Shown in pieces: positions 17 through 55,511 of a DNA stretch of 64,000 nt (position 1 is its first letter; every line of letters begins with the position of its first letter). Origin of the DNA: Candidatus Finniella inopinata (GTDB lineage Bacteria; Pseudomonadota; Alphaproteobacteria; Paracaedibacterales; VGCI01). Position numbers and translations under genes: made by a program. The stretch covers positions 9,256 to 73,255 of the forward strand of contig CAMCRD010000001.1 in NCBI GenBank assembly GCA_945877185.1. Direction: 5' to 3'. The notes under the pieces are model-generated. The model had not been told where the DNA came from, did no database searches, and worked only from the letters and a program-made list of their open reading frames with translations.

Positions 17-1333
17 ATGGCCATTGGCCATGCGCCCAACGACGTAAGCGTTGCTCCAAAGGTAAAGAATTTAGAGAACACAGTTTACTATGAAATTTCT
101 AACTTAATAGAGGACCACCCAAACCGTGGAGAAATGAAAGCCGCTGTTTTCTTTTCCCAAAAACCAAATTTAGAAGAAAAAGAGCATATTAAGGATATAT
201 TTATTAAAAACTTTGCAAATAGTATAATTAAGAGAGCAATGCGTATAAATTCACAAATTAAACCTTCTGATAACGATAGATTTTATTCTTATATAGAAAT
301 GATAGTAAGTTATCTTGAAGACGATATCACGGACAATAAATTATATGATTTTTCTAAAAGTGACTTTAAAGCTATCATGTCAGAAACATATAAAATTTCT
401 GAAAGTGAAAAAGAACCAATAAAAAATTTACTGTTTACTGAGCTCAAAAAAATATTTTCCAAACACGATATATTTAGCCTAAAAGAAATAGGAAAAGAAT
501 ATTACTTCGAAGTGCCTATGTTTATGATAGATAAACGTGGCAGAACAAGCCAAGACCCAACCGTATTAGAAAATTTCAATGACCTATTAACGAATGTACC
601 TCTTGTTGAGAATAGCTTTATTATCGAGAACAAGCACCATTCCATAACCACAGGTATGACAACAGATACGGTTAATATCAGCCACGACTCAGCTTTTATG
701 GATAATTTGTATAAAAAAATCAACCAAATTAGAAACTTAAAACAAAATTGGAATCCGAGTGAAGAGCCCTTTATAATTCTATGGGATACAACCATGGAAA
801 TTGACAAAGGGCCCTGCTATTATTTAATGGATAAATTACGCGAGGAAATTGAATCTGGAAAAGTTATTTTTCTCTTATTCAAAAGCTTACAAAAATATGC
901 CAATTTAGGTATTGGAAAAACTAAAGCTGGTGTGGTGACATTAGTTGGGAAAAAGACACCCATAGTAGAAAATATAAACAATAAGCTAGCAGGTTATGGA
1001 AAGGATGTCTTTTCCCATAGCCACGAATATGCCCTAATGACTTTTTTTTATGACCCATTCAAGCAGCAAGATAATGAAGTGCTTTATTATCAAGCCACCC
1101 AAAAAAACGCCCAGAAGATATATAATTCAGATCCGACTAAGTACACAATATCAAGTGGTTGCTTATTTACCAGTGAAGATCCAACTAAGACGGGGATGCC
1201 TTACTCAGATACCTTTGGTTTTGCGATACCAACAGTAGCACCCCTTAGGGATCTTTCCCGCTACTCCGTAGGTCTAAACCCGAAGGGTCTTGAGCGAGGG
1301 ACGGAACAAATTGTCATGGATCGTGAGAATTAA
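17..1333 (+). CDS. hypothetical protein, AT-rich accessory gene (possibly 5'-truncated by the window edge)
   Basis: 438-aa ORF. The frame stays open upstream of the first ATG to position 2, so the true start may lie outside the window. No clear family. Only a weak pattern resemblance to fold-type-I PLP enzymes (VIFLLFKSLQKY..GKTKAGVV and C-terminal RYSVGLNPK). Confidence 0.5.
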   Translation: MAIGHAPNDVSVAPKVKNLENTVYYEISNLIEDHPNRGEMKAAVFFSQKPNLEEKEHIKDIFIKNFANSIIKRAMRINSQIKPSDNDRFYSYIEMIVSYLEDDITDNKLYDFSKSDFKAIMSETYKISESEKEPIKNLLFTELKKIFSKHDIFSLKEIGKEYYFEVPMFMIDKRGRTSQDPTVLENFNDLLTNVPLVENSFIIENKHHSITTGMTTDTVNISHDSAFMDNLYKKINQIRNLKQNWNPSEEPFIILWDTTMEIDKGPCYYLMDKLREEIESGKVIFLLFKSLQKYANLGIGKTKAGVVTLVGKKTPIVENINNKLAGYGKDVFSHSHEYALMTFFYDPFKQQDNEVLYYQATQKNAQKIYNSDPTKYTISSGCLFTSEDPTKTGMPYSDTFGFAIPTVAPLRDLSRYSVGLNPKGLERGTEQIVMDREN

Positions 1334-1394: not shown

Positions 1395-2252
1395 TTAAAG
1401 TCCCAATTCTTCCAAAATCTTTTCTGCTTGAGCAGCCGTTACGCCCATATTGGCGTGAAGGTGGCTCGCCATTTCAGTATGGGTCGGGCTTATCCCTCCC
1501 TTACTCCGCTTTAACTCCATGACAAGCTCCCCTGCCCGAACGAGATGTCCTGAGTTTGGTTCCCATTCCGGTACTGGTACGACCGATGGCTGAATGACTG
1601 CTTGAGGAACTGCAGGCTGTGAAGCAGCAGCCGCTTGTTGTCGTCTCGCTGTTTCTTCTGCATGGGTGCGAAGAGACTCTTGAGTAGCTCGCTCAATTTG
1701 TCGCGCCTCTTCAGCGGCTCTTTCCTGGCGACGAGCTTCTTCACGCGCATGCGTCGCTAAAGAATTTTGTCTAGCCTGTTCAAGTTGACGCGCCTCTTCG
1801 GCGGCTCTTTCCTGACGACGCCTTTGTTCACTTGCTTGGGTGGCTAAAGAGTTTTGTCTCGCTTGTTCAAGTTGAGCGGCTTCCGTTGCCTGACGATTTA
1901 AGTCATCTTGACCACGATTATATCCTTTCTGCTGAACAGGCGGCAAAACATTCGCTTGTGCGCGATGAATATCCCTGCGTTGGGCTGGTGGATTTACCAG
2001 ATAGGGAGGGGAGGGTTGATTGGCAGAAGCCCTTTGAAAACGATTATTATTTTCAATAATTCTCTGCTGTTGCTCAGCCCTCTGTTGCTGTTCGATCTTG
2101 AGTTGTTCGATCTTGAGTTCTTCAATTTGAGCTTTCCTCACGGATTGTTCAAAGATTGACTCTTGCCTTTGATTCAGGGATGTGGGGCATCCCGTCACGA
2201 TGAGGGGCAATGGTAAAATCAACATGGCTTTCAAGATTTTTGAATACTGCAT
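1395..2252 (-). CDS. lipoprotein with charged 29-aa tandem repeats and a C-terminal domain shared with the neighbouring lipoprotein
   Basis: The N-terminus MQYSKILKAMLILPLPLIVTGC has a signal peptide plus lipobox (VTGC). It contains three EEARQLEQARQNSLAT..RRQERAA repeats. The C-terminal ~58 aa are paralogous to the C-terminus of ORF 2366..2824. Confidence 0.7.
   Translation of the reverse strand: MQYSKILKAMLILPLPLIVTGCPTSLNQRQESIFEQSVRKAQIEELKIEQLKIEQQQRAEQQQRIIENNNRFQRASANQPSPPYLVNPPAQRRDIHRAQANVLPPVQQKGYNRGQDDLNRQATEAAQLEQARQNSLATQASEQRRRQERAAEEARQLEQARQNSLATHAREEARRQERAAEEARQIERATQESLRTHAEETARRQQAAAASQPAVPQAVIQPSVVPVPEWEPNSGHLVRAGELVMELKRSKGGISPTHTEMASHLHANMGVTAAQAEKILEELGL
1626..1886. 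repeat. 3 x 87-bp in-frame tandem repeat inside the lipoprotein gene
   Basis: Residues 123-209 of the 285-aa product form three consecutive 29-aa units: TEAAQLEQARQNSLATQASEQRRRQERAA, EEARQLEQARQNSLATHAREEARRQERAA and EEARQIERATQESLRTHAEETARRQQAAA. The DNA similarity is visible directly. Confidence 0.8.
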
Positions 2253-2365
2253 GAGAATGTCCTCTTATGAAAAAATGTTTGTGCAATAAAGCCCCTCCTT
2301 GACTCTGTAATTTTATACCGAAGAAAAAGGGGGGGTTTTGGATATCTAACTCTTCTTAAAAGTCC

Positions 2366-2824
2366 TTAGAGTCCCAATTCTTCCAAGACCTTTTCTGCTT
2401 GAACAGCCGTTACGCCCATATTGGGAAAACGTTTCATGTTGGCTTGAAGGTATTGGGCCATTTCCTCATGGCTCGGGTTTATCCCATGCTTGCTCCTCTT
2501 CAATTCCATAACAAGGTCACCAGCGTAAACAAGGTGGCCTTCGGATGGAAACCAAGCAGGATCCATTTCCATCGGCGTACAATGGCCAGTGAACGACTGA
2601 GGCAATGCTGAAGAAGGAATAGCAGCAGGCTCTTGTGGGCACCCACAATCCTCAGAAGCTTTAGGTTTTGGTGCAACAGAGGGAGCACCCGTTGTCGCAG
2701 ATGGTGGAGCAACTACCGGAGGCGGAGGTGGTGCATAAAAATTATCCGAATCTTCACCAAAAAATCCATTACATCCTGCTAGAGTCAGAGGAAGAGCAAC
2801 GGCCAAAACTTTTGAAATACGCAT
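2366..2824 (-). CDS. small proline-rich lipoprotein sharing a C-terminal domain with ORF 1395..2252
   Basis: MRISKVLAVALPLTLAGC has a signal peptide plus lipobox (LAGC), followed by a PPPPPVVAPP linker. The C-terminus GHLVYAGDLVMELKRSKHGINPSHEEMAQYLQANM..GVTAVQAEKVLEELGL aligns with GHLVRAGELVMELKRSKGGISPTHTEMASHLHANMGVTAAQAEKILEELGL. Confidence 0.7.
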   Translation of the reverse strand: MRISKVLAVALPLTLAGCNGFFGEDSDNFYAPPPPPVVAPPSATTGAPSVAPKPKASEDCGCPQEPAAIPSSALPQSFTGHCTPMEMDPAWFPSEGHLVYAGDLVMELKRSKHGINPSHEEMAQYLQANMKRFPNMGVTAVQAEKVLEELGL

Positions 2825-2999: not shown

Positions 3000-5249
3000 T
3001 TGCCTGTTGCGGTCTCCTTGGCAACCCTGCTATCAATGGGGAAGAAAATTGTGATTGGAAATGATAAACCTGTGTCTCACTCTGTTGCTGTACCTTATCC
3101 CATGACGCCATCTTATCTTGATGCTTTAAATGCAGAACAACGGGTTGCCGTTGAATCGATCAATGGTCCTGTCCTGATTTTGGCGGGTGCTGGCACGGGA
3201 AAAACACGTGTTTTAACCACCCGCATGGCGCACATATTATCTTGTGGCCTCGCTTATCCATCCCAAATCTTAGCGGTAACCTTTACAAACAAAGCGGCCG
3301 CAGAAATGCGTGAACGTGTGGGGGTTTTGCTCAATCAACCCACGGAAGGATTATGGCTGGGCACATTCCATGCCATCGCCGTTCGAATTTTGCGCCGCCA
3401 TGCCGAAGTGGTTGGCTTGAAGCCAAACTTCACAATTTTAGATATGGATGACCAACAACGGCTCATCAAACAAATTCTGAAAGCTGAAAATATTGATGAA
3501 GGGAAAAACCCACCCCGGATGGTTGCGTCGGTCATCAGCCAGAAGAAAGACCGCGTTGAATTTGCGCAAACCCTGGATCAAATTCCGGCACGTAATTGGC
3601 TTGATCGGATTTATAGCCTCTACCAAGATCGCCTCAAAACTCTGAATGCTGTGGATTTTGGGGATCTTCTTTTATATTGCATTCATCTTTTTCAAAATCA
3701 CCATGAGATTTTAAAAACCTATCAAGAACAATTTCATTACATCATGGTTGATGAGTACCAAGACACCAACGTCGCGCAATATTTATGGCTGCGCCTCCTC
3801 GCCCAAGGACACAATAACATCTGCTGTGTCGGGGATGATGACCAATCCATTTATGGATGGCGTGGAGCCGAAATCGGAAATATTTTGCGATTTGAAAAAG
3901 ACTTCCCTGGCGCCACGATCATTCGCCTGGAACAAAATTATCGCTCAACCACCCATATCCTTGGGGCGGCATCCGGTCTCATTGAGAAAAACAAGGGACG
4001 CTTAGGCAAAACCCTTTGGACGGAAACAGATGGCGGTGAGAGAGTCCTGATCCGGGGCACATGGGATTCAGAAGACGAAGCGCGTTTCATTGGCGATGAG
4101 GTGGAAGCTGCCCAACGTCAAGGCATTCTCCTGGCTAAAATGGCCGTATTGGTGCGCGCAGGGTATCAAACCCGCGAATTTGAAGATCGGTTTTTGACCT
4201 TGGGCATTCCTTATAGAGTTATTGGAGGCTTACGGTTTTATGAACGCCAGGAAATCCGGGATGCCATGGCCTATATGCGCCTTGTGAGCCAACCCGATGA
4301 CGGCCTGGCCTTTGAGCGCATCATCAATACCCCCCGGCGGGGCATTGGGGCAACCACGCTGCAATTGATCCACACCTATGCACGGGAGAACGGCGTTTCC
4401 TTGCCCCAGGCTGCGCGTCTGCTGTGTGAAACAGAATCCATTCGAGGAGCTGCCCGAACCGCCTTACGGACTTTTTTCCTTGATCTGGACCGCTGGCGGG
4501 ATTCTCTTCAAAACGAACACCATGTCACGGTCACAAAGATGGTTTTGGATGAATCTGGCTACACGGGCATGTGGCGGGCGGACAAATCCCCAGACGCCCC
4601 GGGACGCCTGGAAAACCTTAAAGAATTGATTCGCGCCCTTGAAGAATTTGATACCTTGGGAAGCTTTTTAGAACACGTCAGTCTGGTCATGGATACCACT
4701 AAGCAAGCGCAAGCGGATATGATCATGATTATGACCCTCCATGCCGCCAAGGGGCTTGAATTTGATACGGTCTTTCTCTCCGGCTGGGAAGAGGGCTTGT
4801 TTCCTCACCCCCGTGCGCTTGATGAAAAAGGGCAAGAGGGGCTGGAGGAAGAACGGCGCTTAGCCTATGTTGGCATCACCCGCGCCCAGCGCAAAGCCAT
4901 TATTACCTTTGCCCTCAATCGCCGGACATACCAGGGATGGCAGCATATGCTCCCTTCCCGGTTTATCAAAGAGTTGCCGACAGATCATACGATATTGATT
5001 CAGCCCAATGGCAATCAGCTCACAGCCCCCTCCTCGTTGCCTCGTCCTTCGGCGACTACGGCATTTACCGATGCAGAGTTTTCAGACGTTCCGTTGCGGC
5101 CTTACCATAGCCATCGTACCCAAGATCGCGTCTTTCACCAAAAATTTGGCTATGGCCGCATCATCGCTATCAATGGAGAACAGCTCGAAATTGACTTTGA
5201 AGCAGCAGGTGTTAAAAAAGTCATGGCTGACTTTGTTGAAAAGGAATAA
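3000..5249 (+). CDS. uvrD: UvrD/Rep/PcrA-family DNA helicase II
   Basis: Walker A LILAGAGTGKTRVLT, DEYQDTN (helicase motif II), QNYRST, and a full-length UvrD-like layout. The ORF-track start at 3000 is TTG, and an ATG at 3036 is an alternative start. Confidence 0.9.
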   Translation: MPVAVSLATLLSMGKKIVIGNDKPVSHSVAVPYPMTPSYLDALNAEQRVAVESINGPVLILAGAGTGKTRVLTTRMAHILSCGLAYPSQILAVTFTNKAAAEMRERVGVLLNQPTEGLWLGTFHAIAVRILRRHAEVVGLKPNFTILDMDDQQRLIKQILKAENIDEGKNPPRMVASVISQKKDRVEFAQTLDQIPARNWLDRIYSLYQDRLKTLNAVDFGDLLLYCIHLFQNHHEILKTYQEQFHYIMVDEYQDTNVAQYLWLRLLAQGHNNICCVGDDDQSIYGWRGAEIGNILRFEKDFPGATIIRLEQNYRSTTHILGAASGLIEKNKGRLGKTLWTETDGGERVLIRGTWDSEDEARFIGDEVEAAQRQGILLAKMAVLVRAGYQTREFEDRFLTLGIPYRVIGGLRFYERQEIRDAMAYMRLVSQPDDGLAFERIINTPRRGIGATTLQLIHTYARENGVSLPQAARLLCETESIRGAARTALRTFFLDLDRWRDSLQNEHHVTVTKMVLDESGYTGMWRADKSPDAPGRLENLKELIRALEEFDTLGSFLEHVSLVMDTTKQAQADMIMIMTLHAAKGLEFDTVFLSGWEEGLFPHPRALDEKGQEGLEEERRLAYVGITRAQRKAIITFALNRRTYQGWQHMLPSRFIKELPTDHTILIQPNGNQLTAPSSLPRPSATTAFTDAEFSDVPLRPYHSHRTQDRVFHQKFGYGRIIAINGEQLEIDFEAAGVKKVMADFVEKE

Positions 5250-5259
5250 GAATTCAAAA

Positions 5260-6132
5260 ATGTTTTGGAGAGTTTTTTTTCATTGTAATCCGACCCTTGC
5301 TTCTGACCTTGGAAGCGCTTTAGAAGATCACGTTTCTGCAGTCTCCTGGTTTGAAACCAAAGATTCAAATTTTTGGGTGGTCGAAGCGATCACAACAACA
5401 GAGCCGGATCGGGATGAATTCACCCATATCCTCGGCACGGCTTGCACGAAACTAAACATACCTGTCCCCTCCCTGATCATTGAAGAGCTGCCCGAAACAG
5501 ATTGGCTGGAAGCCACCTGGCGGAACTTCCCCCCCCGACAAATCGGGCGTTATTACGTCTATGGAAGCCATACAGATCCAAAACCACCGGAAGGGTCTGT
5601 AATCCTTGAAATTAATGCTGCAACAGCTTTTGGATCTGGTGAGCATGAGACGACGACAACCTGCCTTCTGACCCTGGATGATTTGGCAAGAGAAGGCCAC
5701 CTATTTCAAAAACCAATAGACATGGGGTGTGGCTCAGGCATTTTAGGTATTGCCATTGCAAAGACATGGAATATACCTGTTGTTGCCGCAGATAACGATC
5801 CAGAATCTGTACGCGTTGCCACAAATAATGCAGCCCTCAACCATTGTGACGCGGTCTTCAGCGCTTATTTAAGTGAGGGATTTGAGAATCCGGACCTTCA
5901 AGCCGAGGGATCTTATGACCTCATTGTTGCCAATATTTTAGCAACCCCTCTCATTGAAATGGCTCCTTCTCTATCGCGTGCCCTTACGCCAAAGGGCTTG
6001 GTGATTTTATCAGGATTGCTAAGCCGCCACCGAGACGACATTGTTAGAGCTTATCAGGCAGAAGGTGTGCGCCTCGTCAGTCACCGAACCTTGAATGACT
6101 GGGAAGCCTTGTTGTTGAAAAAGTCGAAATAG
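5260..6132 (+). CDS. prmA: ribosomal protein L11 methyltransferase
   Basis: SAM-binding motif DMGCGSGILGIA, FGSGEHETT, and PrmA-like length (291 aa from the ATG at 5260). The longer ORF from 5008 overlaps the uvrD 3' end and is rejected. Confidence 0.85.
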   Translation: MFWRVFFHCNPTLASDLGSALEDHVSAVSWFETKDSNFWVVEAITTTEPDRDEFTHILGTACTKLNIPVPSLIIEELPETDWLEATWRNFPPRQIGRYYVYGSHTDPKPPEGSVILEINAATAFGSGEHETTTTCLLTLDDLAREGHLFQKPIDMGCGSGILGIAIAKTWNIPVVAADNDPESVRVATNNAALNHCDAVFSAYLSEGFENPDLQAEGSYDLIVANILATPLIEMAPSLSRALTPKGLVILSGLLSRHRDDIVRAYQAEGVRLVSHRTLNDWEALLLKKSK

Positions 6133-6236: not shown

Positions 6237-7883
6237 ATGGCACAACCCTCTTTTTTAAAATCATTATTGGTAATGGGTCTTGTAATAGGAAATGCAGCTT
6301 TCTCCTATGGCATGGACTCCCCTGGTACAAAGGAACTTCGTACGCGGTTTTATCAAAAAAATGGCTTTATTCTTTCTGAACCGACTCTATTTACTGACGA
6401 AAGAGATTTCCCAGGAAATGATCCAGATCTTAAAGAGCTAAGCCGCACAACAATTCGGGATGGGCTCATTTATGACAGCAAAAATAATTTATTAGATACA
6501 GAAGGGGCCCCCTATATTTATGCCCTCAATCATGACGGAACGCTATACACAAGCTCACAATCTGGAGGAAAACACCACTCTTATTTCCTCAAATCAAAAC
6601 CTGAAAAAATGGGATATGGTATTGGGAAAAATGTCGCTTGTGCTGGCCACATTATAGCAAAACAAGGAAAAATTATCTCTATAGATAACAGTAGTGGACA
6701 TTATCTGCCTATAGAAGACCAGTTTAAAATTACCGTACAATTTCTACACAATAAAGGGGTTTTGGATCCAAACATCAGCCTTACGCTACGAGAACCAGAT
6801 TATGAAGGGGGAGGAAGCAAAAAAACTTCCCTAGAATCAATGATGGGTGAAAACATAGAAGCAATCCTTGCGCCCTATCCCATTGCAACCAAACGTACCC
6901 ATGAATACATAGAAGCCCAAAGAGAGAAAGAAAAAGCATTCCAATTAATAGTCGAACAATTGCAGCCTCATTGCGCCCAAGCATTCTTAAAAAAGCCCCT
7001 CACTGATTTATTTGCCAACTTTCACAGCCCTTCCTCAAAAGGAAAAGTTGATCTGGGAGAGATAACGTTAGAAAACAGGCAATGGAAAGCATTGCTAATC
7101 AATTATCATGGCGATTTACCAGATTCCATCATACAAGCACCGCCGACCGCATTTAGCTGGACGAATAGGGTAACCTCCGAGCCTTTAGTAACAAATATTC
7201 AAGAAGGCGTTGTAACACGCCATGCGACGTGTTCTTATTCAATTTTGCACACGCCCGAACCCCAAAAAATATTCGGCTTTTATTTAATTCCTATAGACGC
7301 GAATAATTTCAAAGAAAAAGAAAAAGAAAATCAAGAGCATAAGCCATTTAAAGAGGGAAATATAAGCCATTCCGTAAGCATGGATTCCCCCCACATGGCA
7401 GAGAGCTTCAAGAGCGGAAACACGAACCAAGAACACAGGCAGGTTAAAGATATTCATATAAAAAGCCCAGCAACTTTAGCAAATTTGAACCACCGTATTC
7501 CAGAAGAGATAAGGAAAAAAGACCCCGTTAAATCGCTTCATGCTTTGTACGCAGAATTAAAATCCCTCAATCCAGATGAAGCAAAAAAATATGAGAGAGA
7601 TGTTCAAGGGAATGATGTAAGCAATATAGCAATCTTCGCAAACATGTCCCACGATCTCACACAAACCTATAGTATTAAAATGTGGGCTCAGATAGAAGAA
7701 AACCCTGTTAAAGCGCTCCATGCCTTGTATGCGGAATTAGAATCTCTCAATCCAGATGAAGCAGCAAAATATGAGAGAGAAGTTCAAGGGAATGATGTAA
7801 GCAATATAGCAATCTTCGCAAACATGTCTCACGACATTATGCAAGCTCGTACTCTCATCATTTCAAGCTACTTTCCCTATTAA
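6237..7883 (+). CDS. secreted hypothetical protein with a duplicated ~46-aa C-terminal module
   Basis: N-terminal signal-like MAQPSFLKSLLVMGLVIGNAAFSYG. A conserved-looking block GGKHHSYFL...VACAGHIIAKQGKIISIDNSSGHYLP. Two near-identical C-terminal modules PVK(S/A)LHALYAEL(K/E)SLNPDEA.KYER.VQGNDVSNIAIFANMSHD. Confidence 0.7.
   Translation: MAQPSFLKSLLVMGLVIGNAAFSYGMDSPGTKELRTRFYQKNGFILSEPTLFTDERDFPGNDPDLKELSRTTIRDGLIYDSKNNLLDTEGAPYIYALNHDGTLYTSSQSGGKHHSYFLKSKPEKMGYGIGKNVACAGHIIAKQGKIISIDNSSGHYLPIEDQFKITVQFLHNKGVLDPNISLTLREPDYEGGGSKKTSLESMMGENIEAILAPYPIATKRTHEYIEAQREKEKAFQLIVEQLQPHCAQAFLKKPLTDLFANFHSPSSKGKVDLGEITLENRQWKALLINYHGDLPDSIIQAPPTAFSWTNRVTSEPLVTNIQEGVVTRHATCSYSILHTPEPQKIFGFYLIPIDANNFKEKEKENQEHKPFKEGNISHSVSMDSPHMAESFKSGNTNQEHRQVKDIHIKSPATLANLNHRIPEEIRKKDPVKSLHALYAELKSLNPDEAKKYERDVQGNDVSNIAIFANMSHDLTQTYSIKMWAQIEENPVKALHALYAELESLNPDEAAKYEREVQGNDVSNIAIFANMSHDIMQARTLIISSYFPY
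7521..7838. repeat. two ~138-bp direct repeats at 180-bp period (coding, within ORF 6237..7883)
   Basis: 7521..7658 and 7701..7838 are near-identical at DNA level (…gttaaa.cgct.catgc.ttgta.gc.gaatta.aatc.ctcaatccagatgaagca…gcaatatagcaatcttcgcaaacatgtc.cacga). Confidence 0.85.
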
Positions 7884-24377: not shown

Positions 24378-25721
24378 TCACCAAATATCTCCTGGGATGC
24401 AGGACATATCCACACTCAAATTTTCTTTTCTTGATTCAAAATAAGCAAGTGCCTCATCGAATTTATGACGTTTTTTCACAGGTAATTCAGTGTCATTAAA
24501 ATTATTAGAATTATTTATTCCAGTGTGATCTTTATAGTAAATACTTAATTTTTCAAGCGTAGTGTTGTTTTTTAGATGTTTGTGAAATGCTATCGCTGCA
24601 TCGATTACATTTAATCTATTGTGGCACTGTACACTAATAGAGCGGAGGGTTTTATTTTCTTTTAAGCATTTTGCTATATTTTTTGACGCTATTTTATGGC
24701 TACAAAGTGGATTTTCTAACGTTAAAGAAGTTATACAATTATTTTTCTCCAAACCTCTTCCTAATTCGCCGTAAACATGAACAACTCCAAGCTGATCATA
24801 CTCCGTATCCTCTCGCACCAGAACTGATTCAAATACATTGTTTATTTTAATCATCTTTCTTAAATAAGAAAATTTATTAGGATCATTCCCCATAGTTTGA
24901 AGCTCAAAAATTAATTTTATTTTTTTAGATTTTATTTCGTTTAATCTTTTATATTGTTTCAATTTATCATAACTATCCCAAATACCAATTGTTATACATT
25001 CAAGGTTTGGAAGTTTATTAATATAATATATTTCATCATTATTGATTTTTTGTAAAACAAAATTGGTGATTTTAGAATTTAATATATTGCTAAAATGTTG
25101 GCAAACGCTACCCCATTCTCTAAACTCCGACTCACCACGATAAACTTGATCAAATATTTTATTCATAACATCGTATGGAATCATTCTAATATTACAATGA
25201 TTAACAGTTTTAATCATTTCTTCTGCTTTAAGATGCCCCTCTTGAATTGCTTTTTGATAATATTCCATAGCAGTGGGTATCCAATCTCCCCCTTTTTTTT
25301 GGTAGATGGCGCCTAATTTAAAGTACGCCTCGGGCAATCCGATTGTACCAAAAACGACGTTAATATTGCTTATAGCTCCAGCATGTCCTTGGTTCGCAGC
25401 TAGATCATACCATTTGAGCGCTTTAGAGAAGTTCTGCTGGACTCCGTATCCATTTCCATACGCAGCACCAATAGTATTTTGTGCATCTGCATTTCCATCA
25501 TAAGCGCTGTCTTTGGTATCGTTAAACCATTTTTGAAACTCTACATTTTCTGCTGGTTCTGTTGTGTCAATTCTTTGGCGTTTCTCTAGCCTGTCATCTT
25601 GACTTGGGGACCCTGGGCGTTTCAGAGGGTTATGGTTGTTTGTTTCGTCTTCCGCCCCATGACAAGGGAGGAGTAAAATAGAACACAAAAGTGCCGTTAC
25701 TGTACTTCTTATCGTCATCAT
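24378..25721 (-). CDS. eukaryote-like repeat protein: signal peptide, Sel1 repeats, F-box-like motif, RNI-type leucine-rich repeats
   Basis: Signal-like MMTIRSTVTALLCSILLLPCHGA. Sel1 pattern DGNADAQNTIGAAYGNGYGVQQNFSKALKWYDLAANQGHAGA. F-box-like IPYDVMNKIFDQV….WGSVCQHFSNIL. LRR-like NNCITSLTLEN…LKENKTLRSISVQ…LKNNTTLEKLSIYY. Strongly AT-rich. The Sel1 call is firm, while the F-box and LRR calls are pattern-based. Confidence 0.7.
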   Translation of the reverse strand: MMTIRSTVTALLCSILLLPCHGAEDETNNHNPLKRPGSPSQDDRLEKRQRIDTTEPAENVEFQKWFNDTKDSAYDGNADAQNTIGAAYGNGYGVQQNFSKALKWYDLAANQGHAGAISNINVVFGTIGLPEAYFKLGAIYQKKGGDWIPTAMEYYQKAIQEGHLKAEEMIKTVNHCNIRMIPYDVMNKIFDQVYRGESEFREWGSVCQHFSNILNSKITNFVLQKINNDEIYYINKLPNLECITIGIWDSYDKLKQYKRLNEIKSKKIKLIFELQTMGNDPNKFSYLRKMIKINNVFESVLVREDTEYDQLGVVHVYGELGRGLEKNNCITSLTLENPLCSHKIASKNIAKCLKENKTLRSISVQCHNRLNVIDAAIAFHKHLKNNTTLEKLSIYYKDHTGINNSNNFNDTELPVKKRHKFDEALAYFESRKENLSVDMSCIPGDIW

Positions 25722-53876: not shown

Positions 53877-55511
53877 TTAAGATGCAAGGCTCGGAAGTTG
53901 TATGCTTTCCATAGGTTCCTTCAAGCTCTCTTTGGGTGTATTCATTGGCGCCATCGCTTCCCCAAAAATAGCTAAGACTTGTACCAGGTCATAGCTTCCA
54001 ACCTTGATGCCTTCTTTGGTGAGTTGAATGTCAACAGATTGCTGGGACGCCCCAGATGGTTCCAAAATTTTACCCAGCACAGCGCGACTGCCTTTTATAT
54101 ATCCCATGATATTTTGAATTTCTTGGAAACCAATTTGAGAAAACGGTTGAGAAGCGCGCGTGGCATAGTTTTCTAGATCCGACATCAAAATCGTTGCATT
54201 TCGGGCGCTCAATTTGATAGACCCCCCATCGTTATTTAAAGCGCCTACAGCCTTAACATCATAAAGGTCGCTCGTAAATTCTAAAGATCCCTTCCCTTCT
54301 GTGAAGGACAATGTCACCGGAATATCAAGATCCATAGAAAATTGCATTTTCCCAAAGGATTGAAGTTGGGGCAGGGTATTTTTAGGAATGTCCTTATTCT
54401 TCAAGGAAGACATAAACTCTGGTGGCAGCTCTGCACCAGCCAAATTACCAACCATACTTTTAAAATAATCGTTCCAATAACTTGGCCATTGGTCAGTCGC
54501 CTTAAAGTCCCCTGATAGCTTTATAGGGAAAAAGTCTTTTGATCTTCCAATGCTTCCTTTCATTGAGCTTTGATATACTTTATTTTCCGTGGAATAATTT
54601 TTTATATCCAAGCGAATCCCCTCAGGAACTAATTTTTTTAAATCTGGAGAATCGACCTTGTTCACAGCATTTGCGTAAATAAGTTTAAGATCCTCAATAT
54701 AAGCCATGAAATCATTTACATGAAAAGAGGCACATATTTTTTGATCTTGTGGTCCAAGGACAGCTTGCATTTCTAGTTCATTAAGAATGCTCGTATTCAA
54801 AGCATCAAGCCCTTCCAATTTCCCTTTTAAACCCTTCTCAATTTTAAAAAACTGCATCTGAGAAATGTCAGAGGTAACAGAGATATCAGCAGCTTTCCCA
54901 TCCTGATCTAAAGAAAACTGTGACAGCGTATCTTTAATATCTAATAGTTTTTGATCGTTCAAAAGAAAAGAAAGCCCTTTTGAATTAGAAGAGACACCTT
55001 TAATATTATTAAAAGATAAAAATTGGTTTTTCCCAAAAAAATCATATTCTTTGCGCTGAATAACGAAGCTAGATTCTTTAGATTTTGGCATAACGATCAT
55101 CAGCTCAAGGGGACCTTCGACATTTAGTTGGGAGTCCCCATCTGTTTTGATGGTAACGGCATTGGCTATTGGAGAAAAACATGCCATGATTTCCCCTTTA
55201 ACTAAGATAGTCCCCTTCAACCCCTGCAAAGCCCCTAGGGTTTCTAACCCCTCTATGTCTTTTAAATGTTCCCTAAGATCCGGCATTGTCCCCGAAATCG
55301 TCGGATTAACCAGATGGGCCTTAAACAAATACTTTGATACACGAAGCGCATCATAAGCTAATGCAACATCATAAGTTTTGAGAGACTCTTGTATGTTGGT
55401 AAGCTGCTGCGTAATTGATTCCTCAAATAAGCTGGCTTGATAAATCCATGACCCACCAACGACCAAGGAAGGGACAATAATGGCTGTTGCCAAAAGTAAT
55501 TTCTTATTCAT
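53877..55511 (-). CDS. membrane-anchored hypothetical protein (AT-rich)
   Basis: 544 aa with a single N-terminal hydrophobic segment (MNKKLLLATAIIVPSLVVGGSWIY). No recognisable motif. It is divergent from the diguanylate cyclase gene. Confidence 0.6.
   Translation of the reverse strand: MNKKLLLATAIIVPSLVVGGSWIYQASLFEESITQQLTNIQESLKTYDVALAYDALRVSKYLFKAHLVNPTISGTMPDLREHLKDIEGLETLGALQGLKGTILVKGEIMACFSPIANAVTIKTDGDSQLNVEGPLELMIVMPKSKESSFVIQRKEYDFFGKNQFLSFNNIKGVSSNSKGLSFLLNDQKLLDIKDTLSQFSLDQDGKAADISVTSDISQMQFFKIEKGLKGKLEGLDALNTSILNELEMQAVLGPQDQKICASFHVNDFMAYIEDLKLIYANAVNKVDSPDLKKLVPEGIRLDIKNYSTENKVYQSSMKGSIGRSKDFFPIKLSGDFKATDQWPSYWNDYFKSMVGNLAGAELPPEFMSSLKNKDIPKNTLPQLQSFGKMQFSMDLDIPVTLSFTEGKGSLEFTSDLYDVKAVGALNNDGGSIKLSARNATILMSDLENYATRASQPFSQIGFQEIQNIMGYIKGSRAVLGKILEPSGASQQSVDIQLTKEGIKVGSYDLVQVLAIFGEAMAPMNTPKESLKEPMESIQLPSLAS

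What the first reader, a model, noticed from the sequence alone, without database searches (positions are those of the whole stretch)
1395..2824. Tandem lipoproteins sharing an unassigned ~58-aa C-terminal domain
Two adjacent minus-strand genes both start with lipobox signal peptides (..LIVTGC, ..LTLAGC). Their middle sections are unrelated: charged helical repeats in one and a Pro-rich linker in the other. Both end in a near-identical module: W(E/F)P(N/S)(S/E)GHLV.AG.LVMELKRSK.GI.P.H.EMA..L.ANM…GVTA.QAEK.LEELGL*. DNA identity is highest over the last ~60 nt, including the stop.

The domain is preserved at the extreme C-terminus of otherwise divergent lipoproteins. This suggests a shared binding or anchoring function, such as a common partner or peptidoglycan, with variable spacer lengths. 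I cannot assign the module to a known family.
Basis: seen in the sequence. Interest (0 to 1): 0.55.

Follow-up and report, generated by a model that had tools for sequence, protein, structure and literature searches.

The report
New end-domain on symbiont lipoproteins
Two neighbouring lipoprotein genes of a Paracaedibacter-like amoeba symbiont share a small, unnamed three-helix end domain that defines a rare family, and one gene carries it on a long stalk with motifs resembling ubiquitin-binding sites, which hints at a host-directed role that has not been shown.

Summary
Gene A (1395-2252, minus, 285 aa) and gene B (2366-2824, minus, 152 aa) both have lipoboxes. They share a 56-62 aa C-terminal module (BLASTP E 9e-28).

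The module matches nothing in Pfam, NCBIfam, PDB sequences, or PDB and BFVD folds. AlphaFold2 gives a confident three-helix bundle after a W-x-P-N-E-G segment (pLDDT 89).

An exhaustive HMMER search of 1.84 billion representatives found 73 hits, of which about 69 look genuine. In 68 of those the module lies within 8 residues of the C-terminus. 50 of 60 full-length-looking members have a lipobox.

The window comes from a Candidatus Paracaedibacter relative (LepA 97% identical). One member belongs to the intranuclear amoeba symbiont Nucleicultrix. Others lie in a gammaproteobacterial lineage.

A and B are old paralogues, not a recent duplication. A short gene-conversion tract probably explains the near-identical last 57 nt.

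New finding: gene A's charged repeats form a roughly 100-residue predicted single helix with three motifs resembling ubiquitin-interacting motifs (UIMs), 29 residues apart. The Nucleicultrix homologue passes Pfam's UIM threshold. Gene A's own repeats do not.

Best reading (about 0.4): lipid-anchored stalk-and-head adaptors that face the host. The main rival is a periplasmic tether (about 0.33). Function is untested.

The parts
1395..2252 (-). Gene A: 285-aa lipoprotein (A-type: helical stalk plus head module)
   Evidence: ORF. The exact protein is also encoded in Logan ERR3719157 (L004). Orthologues are found in L001, L002 and L018.
2187..2252 (-). Gene A signal peptide and lipobox (aa 1-22, ...LIVTG-C22)
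   Evidence: Read directly from the sequence. 50 of 60 full-length-looking family members have a lipobox.
1623..1919 (-). Gene A long predicted single alpha-helix (aa 112-210): 7% hydrophobic, 18 acidic and 18 basic residues
   Evidence: AlphaFold2 helix H112-210, with block-mean pLDDT 84-95 over the 10-residue blocks from aa 121 to 210. Composition.
1824..1889 (-). UIM-like repeat 1 (aa 122-143, ATEAAQLEQARQNSLATQASEQ)
1737..1802 (-). UIM-like repeat 2 (aa 151-172, AEEARQLEQARQNSLATHAREE)
   Evidence: Part of the 87-nt tandem repeat.
1650..1715 (-). UIM-like repeat 3 (aa 180-201, AEEARQIERATQESLRTHAEET). This is the repeat best conserved across the family.
1398..1565 (-). Gene A C-terminal head module (aa 230-285): W-E-P-N-S-G segment followed by three helices
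   Evidence: AlphaFold2 pLDDT 89.4 on the module alone and 94-97 within the full-length model. Family profile.
2366..2824 (-). Gene B: 152-aa lipoprotein (B-type: Pro-rich linker plus head module)
   Evidence: ORF. Orthologues lie next to uvrD in L007, L010/L011 and L012. L008 and L009 also carry orthologues, but their neighbouring genes were not identified.
2771..2824 (-). Gene B signal peptide and lipobox (aa 1-18, ...LTLAG-C18)
   Evidence: A weak Pfam LPAM_MltD match, E 0.0043.
2555..2770 (-). Gene B linker (aa 19-90). It has an acidic FFGEDSDNFY motif after the lipidated Cys, a Pro/Ala-rich stretch, and a C60-G-C62 motif (nt 2639-2647).
   Evidence: The same motifs occur in B-type homologues.
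2369..2554 (-). Gene B C-terminal head module (aa 91-152), with a 6-aa NMKRFP insertion (nt 2423-2440)
1398..1454 (-). Last 19 codons of gene A: probable gene-conversion tract shared with 2369-2425 of gene B
   Evidence: 15 of 16 same-amino-acid codons are identical between A and B in the window. Most other comparisons differ in about a third to a half of such codons (range 3/17 to 9/16).

Best explanation
Genes A and B are old paralogues in a rare, unannotated family of Sec-exported proteins, most of them lipoproteins. The family is defined by a C-terminal head domain of about 57 aa: an extended W-x-P-N-E-G segment packed onto a three-helix bundle.

Each protein has three parts: an N-terminal lipid anchor, a variable stalk, and the conserved head at the far end.
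- In B the stalk is a disordered Pro-rich linker with a CxC motif.
- In A the stalk is a charged single alpha-helix of about 100 residues (roughly 150 Å). It carries three small hydrophobic patches (phi-x-x-A-x-x-x-S-L-x-T with acidic flanks) every 29 residues. That spacing puts them on nearly the same helical face. The pattern is the skeleton of the eukaryotic ubiquitin-interacting motif (UIM).

Inferred mechanism: the proteins are tethered in the outer membrane of an obligate intracellular amoeba symbiont and exposed or released towards the host. The head docks onto a conserved protein partner. In A-type members the stalk additionally engages ubiquitin or ubiquitylated host proteins. The stalk sets the reach.

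Shown here: gene structure, family, domain position, predicted fold, taxonomic placement, age of the paralogues, and motif statistics.

Inferred only: outer-membrane localisation, surface exposure, the identity of any partner, and ubiquitin binding.
For: Family and domain:
- A profile search of 1.84 billion representatives gave 73 hits, 31 of them below 1e-10. About 69 look genuine.
- The module lies 0-8 residues from the C-terminus in 68 of those 69.
- 50 of 60 full-length-looking members have a lipobox and 8 have another hydrophobic N-terminus.

Fold: AlphaFold2 pLDDT 89.4, with helices at residues 12-28, 36-47 and 51-61 of the 63-residue model.

No known family matches.

Host-associated lineages:
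- The window's LepA is 97% identical to a Candidatus Paracaedibacter sp. MAG and 84-86% to the amoeba symbionts P. symbiosus and Odyssella.
- Holosporales are obligately associated with eukaryotic hosts, and Holospora periplasmic proteins are reported to reach the host (PMC11909080; PMC8163844).
- A family member is WP_085783680.1 of the intranuclear symbiont Nucleicultrix amoebiphila (PMC4817620).

UIM-likeness:
- The phi-xx-A-xxx-S motif occurs 58 times in family linkers, against 9.1 ± 2.8 in shuffles.
- The Nucleicultrix-cluster protein P0060 passes the Pfam gathering scores for UIM_2 (26.4 vs 21) and UIM (21.6 vs 21).
- A profile of 47 repeats, searched against all PDB sequences, hits only the Vps27 UIM entries 1O06 (E 0.071) and 1Q0V (E 0.72).
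- In a per-repeat Pfam scan, the only recurrent families are UIM (4 of 47) and UIM_2 (2 of 47).

Stalk: AlphaFold2 predicts one helix over aa 112-210. It is only 7% hydrophobic, so it looks like a single helix with isolated patches rather than a coiled coil.

Age of the A/B split: over the first 38 module residues, A is 71-84% identical to its three closest A orthologues and B is 71-95% identical to its closest B orthologues, against 66% for A vs B. The A gene occupies the same locus in the more distant relative L018.
Against: - Proteobacterial lipoproteins face the periplasm by default. Nothing here shows surface exposure or release.
- Gene A's own repeats do not reach any UIM threshold. Pfam gives no hit even at E 10. 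A home-made UIM HMM gives 3.0 bits, a score reached by 2.9% of shuffles.
- In gene A the residue after the conserved Ala is R or T, not the usual I, L or M.
- The PDB hits to the Vps27 UIM are not significant on their own (E 0.07).
- Gene B and the gamma-type members have no UIM-like motif.
- Some members sit at stable, housekeeping-like positions: next to uvrD, or immediately downstream of rsgA-psd. That fits a core envelope role as well.
- The taxonomy of most family members is unknown.
- The module MSA for AlphaFold2 was shallow (8 sequences).
Confidence: 0.4

Rival explanations
1. Periplasmic tether or reach-through adaptor. The lipoprotein is anchored in the inner leaflet of the outer membrane. 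The Pro-rich linker or rigid helix spans the periplasm. The head binds peptidoglycan or an inner-membrane or periplasmic protein. This would be analogous in architecture to LpoB or LpoA, or to a strut such as Lpp.
For: - A lipobox is present in 50 of 60 full-length-looking members.
- The Pro/Ala-rich linkers resemble periplasm-spanning hinges (my own knowledge of OmpA and TonB hinges).
- Linker length is variable.
- Positions are stable and syntenic. Gene B sits next to uvrD across the Paracaedibacter clade. The gamma-type gene sits 2-23 nt downstream of psd in three contigs.
- Cys motifs in the linkers could form periplasmic disulfides.
- Periplasmic orientation is the default for proteobacterial lipoproteins.
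Against: - No member matched any Pfam family above threshold, and Pfam includes the LysM, OmpA-like, PG_binding and SPOR models. Foldseek shows only generic helical matches.
- Module net charge averages -2.1.
- There is no C-terminal Lys.
- The gene A helix has too few hydrophobic residues (7%) for an Lpp-like coiled coil.
- This reading does not explain the conserved UIM-like motif.
- The family is extremely rare and patchy for a core envelope function: 73 clusters in 1.84 billion. It spans alpha and gamma lineages.
- Some members have ordinary signal peptides instead of lipoboxes.
Confidence: 0.33
2. The C-terminal module is a folded export or sorting tag, comparable in role to other C-terminal sorting domains. 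A dedicated secretion or surface-display machinery would recognise it, and the variable upstream part would be the cargo.
For: - The module is at the extreme C-terminus in 68 of the 69 genuine hits.
- Helix 3 and the terminal ELG[LIV] are very strongly conserved.
- The upstream regions are diverse, including Sel1 repeats in P0044.
Against: - No conserved neighbouring machinery gene was seen in any locus.
- The 'cargo' is mostly a low-complexity linker rather than an enzyme or effector domain.
- In P0090 the module is internal.
- No known sorting domain was matched.
Confidence: 0.12
3. The shared end is only the trace of a very recent local duplication or gene conversion and has no particular function.
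For: Within the window, the last 19 codons of A and B share synonymous codons in 15 of 16 cases. This points to a recent conversion tract.
Against: - The tract covers only about 57 nt.
- Over the first 38 module residues, A and B each group with their own orthologues from other genomes.
- The module is conserved in 73 clusters across at least two proteobacterial classes.
- The A-vs-B pairs in L001 and L002 show no such codon sharing.
Confidence: 0.02

Closest known systems
Eukaryotic ubiquitin-interacting motif (UIM; Pfam PF02809/PF23625), e.g. Vps27, Hrs, S5a/Rpn10, RAP80
   Same: - It is a short single-helix motif with acidic flanks and the phi-x-x-A-x-x-x-S core.
- It is arranged in tandem on a continuous helix.
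- The repeat profile's only PDB hits are the Vps27 UIM entries.
- A family member passes the Pfam UIM thresholds.
   Different: - These are bacterial proteins with lipoprotein signal peptides.
- Gene A's repeats fail the UIM models.
- The residue after Ala is R, T or K in the Paracaedibacter group.
- The motif extends as S-L-x-T-[YH].
- Spacing is a regular 29 residues.
- Ubiquitin binding is untested.
LpoB / LpoA (outer-membrane lipoprotein activators of PBPs) and similar reach-through lipoproteins
   Same: The architecture is alike: a lipid anchor, a long flexible or extended linker, and a small C-terminal globular domain that contacts a partner (my own knowledge of LpoB).
   Different: There is no sequence or fold relation. 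The head here is a 57-aa three-helix bundle. No link to PBPs or peptidoglycan was found.
Braun lipoprotein Lpp
   Same: Both are small helical outer-membrane lipoproteins whose length could set a distance.
   Different: The gene A helix has 7% hydrophobic residues and no heptad core. The protein ends in Leu, not the Lys that is cross-linked to peptidoglycan. It also has a globular head.
ER/K-type single alpha-helix (SAH) spacers
   Same: The composition fits: 18 acidic, 18 basic, 16 Gln and 23 Ala in 99 residues, with 0.29 opposite-charge pairs at i/i+3 or i/i+4 per residue. AlphaFold2 predicts a single continuous helix.
   Different: SAHs are known mainly from eukaryotic cytosolic proteins. 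This one carries periodic conserved hydrophobic patches.
Generic three-helix, HTH-like or winged-helix bundles (best Foldseek hit: MCM C-terminal domain 2MA3)
   Same: Three short helices, with TM-scores of 0.5-0.6.
   Different: E-values are 0.29 or worse and there is no sequence relation. Most modules are acidic, so DNA binding is unlikely. The N-terminal W-x-P-N-E-G segment is particular to this family.

Membership tests
Bacterial lipoprotein (Lgt/LspA substrates) | N-terminal signal peptide ending in a lipobox [LVI][ASTVI][GAS]C | tested here: met
   A has ...LIVTG-C22 and B has ...LTLAG-C18. There is a weak LPAM_MltD hit for B. 50 of 60 full-length-looking homologues have a lipobox. No dedicated predictor (SignalP or LipoP) was available.
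Bacterial lipoprotein (Lgt/LspA substrates) | Actual lipidation and membrane localisation | not testable with these tools
   Needs globomycin sensitivity, palmitate labelling or fractionation.
UIM (Pfam PF02809 / PF23625) | Consensus: acidic run, then phi-x-x-A-x-x-x-S-x-x-acidic, on a single helix | tested here: met
   Gene A has three copies of [LI]-E-[QR]-A-[RT]-Q-[NE]-S-L with EE upstream and E-rich sequence downstream. They lie on a predicted single helix. The acidic run is offset by three residues, and position A+1 is not hydrophobic.
UIM (Pfam PF02809 / PF23625) | Score at or above the Pfam gathering threshold | tested here: not met
   Gene A gives no UIM hit even at E <= 10 and 3.0 bits with a home-made UIM HMM. 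Homologue P0060 (Nucleicultrix cluster) does pass: UIM_2 26.4 and UIM 21.6, both against a threshold of 21. Of 47 repeats scanned singly, 4 match UIM, best E 0.0013.
UIM (Pfam PF02809 / PF23625) | Binds the Ile44 patch of ubiquitin | not testable with these tools
   Needs ITC, NMR or pull-down with ubiquitin.
UBA / UBA-like three-helix ubiquitin-binding domains | Sequence or fold match to UBA | tested here: not met
   Only 4 of 71 modules give weak UBA_HYPK hits (best E 0.0012, below threshold). No UBA structure appears among the 50 listed Foldseek PDB matches.
Peptidoglycan-binding domains (PG_binding_1, LysM, OmpA-like, SPOR) | Profile match to the family | tested here: not met
   No such Pfam or NCBIfam hit for A, B or 71 modules, even at E 10. 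No such fold appears among the listed Foldseek hits.
Braun lipoprotein (Lpp)-like strut | Heptad hydrophobic core (trimeric coiled coil) and a C-terminal Lys for cross-linking to peptidoglycan | tested here: not met
   Helix 112-210 has 7 hydrophobic residues out of 99. Both proteins end in ...EELGL.
The new family itself (W-x-P-N-E-G three-helix C-terminal module) | Match to the module profile at the C-terminus of a signal-peptide-bearing protein | tested here: met
   Module HMM scores are 107.2 bits for A and 92.4 bits for B. The near-invariant positions W5, P7, L22, P31, M36 and M44 are present in both.

The most novel reading that the evidence does not exclude
Protist-associated intracellular bacteria (Holosporales such as Paracaedibacter and Nucleicultrix, plus a gammaproteobacterial lineage) share, probably by horizontal transfer, a family of envelope-tethered or released host-binding proteins. 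A rigid single-helix stalk would display tandem UIM-like motifs in register to capture ubiquitin or polyubiquitin at the bacterial surface. A previously unknown three-helix head would bind a second conserved host factor. This would be a bacterial, lipid-anchored ubiquitin receptor used to evade or exploit host ubiquitin and autophagy surveillance.
Probability: 0.27. Interest if true: 0.75.

Novelty: new variant of a known kind. Interest (0 to 1): 0.5.

Why it matters
Very little is known about how Holosporales symbionts interact with their hosts at the molecular level. A 2025 review of the order contains no occurrence of the words 'ubiquitin' or 'lipoprotein'.

This finding yields three usable things:
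- A compact, confidently modelled new domain that could be registered as a family.
- A testable candidate for host interaction: UIM-like motifs on a rigid stalk, in bacteria that live in amoeba cytoplasm or nucleus.
- An example of a niche-restricted gene family spanning alpha and gamma lineages.

If instead the head binds an envelope partner, it would identify a lineage-specific outer-membrane tether in bacteria that lack Lpp. Either answer is obtainable with simple binding and localisation experiments.

Tried and rejected
1. Word-index homology searches found only 2 and 6 relatives. The exhaustive HMMER search was needed to see the family.

2. The genome-contig scan used patterns that were too narrow. 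It returned only a chance match, CANMGVTAAQYGRILE in a TonB-dependent receptor of a Niveispirillum MAG. This was rejected as non-homologous.

3. The PDB profile hits for the module were de novo designed helical repeat proteins that share an idealised helix-GxS-helix segment. These were rejected as chance.

4. Foldseek against PDB and BFVD found nothing with E < 0.29.

5. I first took the gene downstream of the B orthologue in L007 and L008 to be A-like. Its C-terminus shows it is unrelated, and I corrected this.

6. I looked for a conserved neighbour between the L007 and Nucleicultrix loci and found none.

7. NCBIfam scans of neighbouring ORFans in the gamma-type loci gave no lineage marker. 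The gammaproteobacterial assignment therefore rests on orn | rsgA-psd synteny with E. coli and 41% RsgA identity.

8. Literature searches for the accessions, and for Holosporales or Nucleicultrix with ubiquitin or lipoprotein, found no description of this family.

9. The coiled-coil (Ala-zipper) reading of the A...S...T pattern was rejected because the helix is only 7% hydrophobic.

Full report
**Observation**

- Gene A runs 1395-2252 and encodes 285 aa, starting MQYSKILKAMLILPLPLIVTG-C22.
- Gene B runs 2366-2824 and encodes 152 aa, starting MRISKVLAVALPLTLAG-C18.
- Both have ribosome-binding-site-like sequences upstream. They are separated by a 113-nt spacer.

The shared C-terminal similarity is well beyond chance.
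- BLASTP aligns the C-terminal parts with 51/97 identities and E 9e-28.
- The modules alone are 72% identical.
- A tblastn of either module against the whole 64-kb window finds only these two copies. A later HMM scan of all six frames agrees.

The module is aa 230-285 in A and aa 91-152 in B. B has a 6-aa insertion, NMKRFP. The middles are unrelated. A contains an 87-nt tandem repeat. B has a Pro/Ala-rich linker.

**No known family matches**

- Pfam and NCBIfam scans of both proteins give nothing relevant.
- Profile searches of the module against all PDB sequences give only insignificant or spurious hits, namely idealised de novo helical repeats.
- Scanning 71 family modules one by one against Pfam at E <= 10 finds no family above threshold. 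The commonest weak matches are HNH_repeat (11 of 71, best E 0.011) and UBA_HYPK (4 of 71, best E 0.0012).
- AlphaFold2 with an 8-sequence alignment gives a confident model: pLDDT 89.4, pTM 0.71. It shows an extended N-terminal segment carrying W-x-P-N-E-G, then helices at residues 12-28, 36-47 and 51-61 of the model.
- Foldseek finds no match better than E 0.29 in PDB or BFVD. The hits are only generic three-helix or HTH-like bundles.

**It is a real family**

The fast word-index searches found almost nothing. An exhaustive HMMER search of 1.84 billion cluster representatives with the module profile returned 73 proteins with E <= 1e-3, including 31 with E <= 1e-10. Three of these are repeat artefacts and one is a short fragment I left out of the analysis. 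That leaves 69.
- In 68 of the 69, the module ends 0-8 residues from the C-terminus.
- Of 60 members that look full-length, 50 have a lipobox and 8 have another hydrophobic N-terminus.
- The near-invariant positions are W5, P7, L22, P31, M36 and M44. Q50, A51 and the terminal ELG[LIV] are also strongly conserved.
- Module net charge averages -2.1, with a range of -9 to +4.

**Source organism and distribution**

The window's LepA is 97% identical to a 'Candidatus Paracaedibacter sp.' MAG. It is 86% identical to Ca. P. symbiosus and 84% to Ca. Odyssella thessalonicensis and acanthamoebae. The window therefore comes from the Paracaedibacteraceae (Holosporales). Described members are Acanthamoeba endosymbionts, and the order is obligately associated with eukaryotic hosts (PMC8163844; PMC11909080).

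One family cluster contains WP_085783680.1 of Ca. Nucleicultrix amoebiphila FS5. That gene is located on CP008743.1. Nucleicultrix is an intranuclear amoeba symbiont (PMC4817620).

A further subgroup lies in low-GC contigs (36-39%).
- These contigs have the orn | rsgA-psd arrangement seen in E. coli, and RsgA is 41% identical to the E. coli protein. I take them to be gammaproteobacterial.
- One such locus (L013) also holds a Sel1-repeat protein, a giant DnaJ-domain protein and many ORFans.
- Another low-GC locus (L015, P0045), whose class I did not test, holds an ankyrin-repeat protein and many ORFans.

I could not confirm the taxonomy of these or of most other members.

**History of the pair**

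The B orthologue sits divergently next to uvrD in several relatives (L007, L010/L011, L012). It is also present in L008 and L009.

Gene A follows B in the window, L004, L001 and L002. An A-type gene lies just upstream of rpmE-mlaE in the more distant L018. Gene A is absent from L007, L009, L010 and L012.

Over the first 38 residues of the module:
- window A is 71-84% identical to its three closest A orthologues;
- window B is 71-95% identical to its closest B orthologues;
- A vs B is 66% identical.

The duplication is therefore old, and A has been lost in some lineages.

The last 19 codons behave differently. In the window, A and B use the same codon at 15 of 16 positions that encode the same amino acid. 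Most other comparisons, including the A-vs-B pairs of L001 and L002, differ at about a third to a half of such codons (range 3/17 to 9/16).

**The stalk of gene A**

The repeats read E-E-A-R-Q-[LI]-E-[QR]-A-[RT]-Q-[NE]-S-L-x-T-[HQ]-A-x-E-E. This has the skeleton of the eukaryotic ubiquitin-interacting motif (UIM). The evidence for that resemblance at family level is:
- In family linkers, phi-xx-A-xxx-S occurs 58 times, against 9.1 ± 2.8 in shuffles. It is often spaced exactly 29 residues apart.
- The repeat nearest the head is the best conserved across A-type members, from Paracaedibacter relatives to the low-GC P0045 group.
- P0060 (the Nucleicultrix cluster) passes the Pfam gathering scores for UIM_2 and UIM.
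- A profile of 47 repeats, searched against all 177,635 distinct PDB sequences, returns only two hits. Both are yeast Vps27 UIM entries: 1O06 at E 0.071 and 1Q0V at E 0.72.
- Scanning the 47 repeats singly against Pfam, the only recurrent families are UIM and UIM_2.

Gene A's own repeats, however, reach no UIM threshold.

AlphaFold2 (13-sequence alignment) models aa 112-210 as one continuous helix. Block-mean pLDDT is 84-95 over the 10-residue blocks from aa 121 to 210. The helix is followed by a disordered linker and then the head, with pLDDT 94-97.

The helix is 7% hydrophobic, with 18 acidic and 18 basic residues. It therefore looks like an ER/K-type single helix rather than a coiled coil. 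With a 29-residue period, successive motifs rotate by only about 20 degrees. They would lie on one face, about 43 Å apart (my inference).

**Interpretation**

I consider these points well supported: the gene models, the new domain family, its three-helix fold, its terminal position, the anchor-stalk-head architecture, the symbiont origin, the ancient paralogy and the UIM-like motif.

Which side of the outer membrane the proteins face is not shown. I favour a host-facing or released adaptor (about 0.4) for four reasons:
- The named members come from obligate intracellular symbionts.
- The UIM-like motif has no obvious periplasmic ligand.
- The family is patchy and spans two classes.
- Sec-exported periplasmic proteins reaching the host have precedent in Holospora (references cited in PMC11909080).

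The periplasmic tether reading (about 0.33) is kept alive by three points:
- Periplasmic orientation is the default for lipoproteins.
- The Pro-rich hinges resemble periplasm-spanning linkers.
- The syntenic positions next to uvrD and psd look housekeeping-like.

A role as a C-terminal sorting tag (about 0.12) lacks any associated machinery. A purely recent duplication is excluded.

**Novelty and score**

The head is a new, unannotated domain family. I found no literature describing it. The overall design, a modular lipoprotein with a terminal binding domain, is familiar, so I class it as a new variant of a known kind. Interest is about 0.5. It is a solid and specific lead for symbiont-host biology, but the mechanism is unproven.

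Noticed in passing
window 17-1333 (+); full gene in L004 3920-6427: This is the C-terminal 438 aa of an 835-aa ORFan with no Pfam or NCBIfam match. It is convergent with gene A and lies between A and rpmE. It is absent in relative L018, where A is followed directly by rpmE-mlaE, so it looks like a lineage-specific insertion.
   Followed up: partly
window 2639-2647 (gene B C60-G-C62) and 2732-2761 (aa 22-31, FGEDSDNFYA); B-type homologues P0020, P0028, P0029, P0030, P0035, P0038, P0042, P0093: B-type linkers conserve a CxC or CC(H)P cysteine motif. They also conserve an acidic F-F-G-E-D-S-D-x-F-Y motif right after the lipidated Cys. Possible roles are metal or disulfide chemistry, or a lipoprotein sorting or export signal.
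   Followed up: no
L013 10001-10612; L019 6799-7332; L020 5103-5636: Gamma-type family members always sit 2-23 nt downstream of rsgA-psd. This is the position occupied by mscM in E. coli. They carry a basic K/R patch in the Pro/Thr-rich linker (e.g. KKKPRVKK, KPKKIRRSK) that looks like a nuclear localisation signal (NLS).
   Followed up: partly
window 1693-1875: The 87-nt tandem repeat encodes the 29-aa UIM-like unit, and its copy number varies between orthologues. The window has 3 motifs, P0021 has 2 and P0025 has 3 plus a degenerate unit. The stalk length therefore evolves by repeat gain and loss.
   Followed up: partly
window 1398-1454 vs 2369-2425: Codon-level identity of the last 19 codons of A and B (15 of 16 same-amino-acid codons) is not seen in the A/B pairs of L001 and L002. 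This points to a short gene-conversion tract specific to the window lineage.
   Followed up: yes
window 6237-7883 (+), 53877-55511 (-), 24378-25721 (-): Two further large ORFs (548 and 544 aa) have no Pfam match at E <= 1e-5, and there is a 447-aa Sel1-repeat protein. These could be lineage-specific or host-interaction genes of the symbiont.
   Followed up: no
window 3000-5249 and 5008-6132 (+): The uvrD ORF and the longest prmA ORF overlap by about 240 nt. The orthologous PrmA proteins in L007 and L012 are 290-291 aa, and the L012 protein begins MLWKVYFHCDP. The real prmA start is therefore probably the internal Met at MFWRVFFHCNP, downstream of uvrD.
   Followed up: partly
P0090 (508 aa, Logan) and P0044 (162 aa, JGI): These are atypical architectures. 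P0090 has the module in mid-protein, followed by a near-canonical UIM (DDDPEIIQAIAISLITNKQEE) and more helical sequence. P0044 fuses Sel1 repeats to the module.
   Followed up: no
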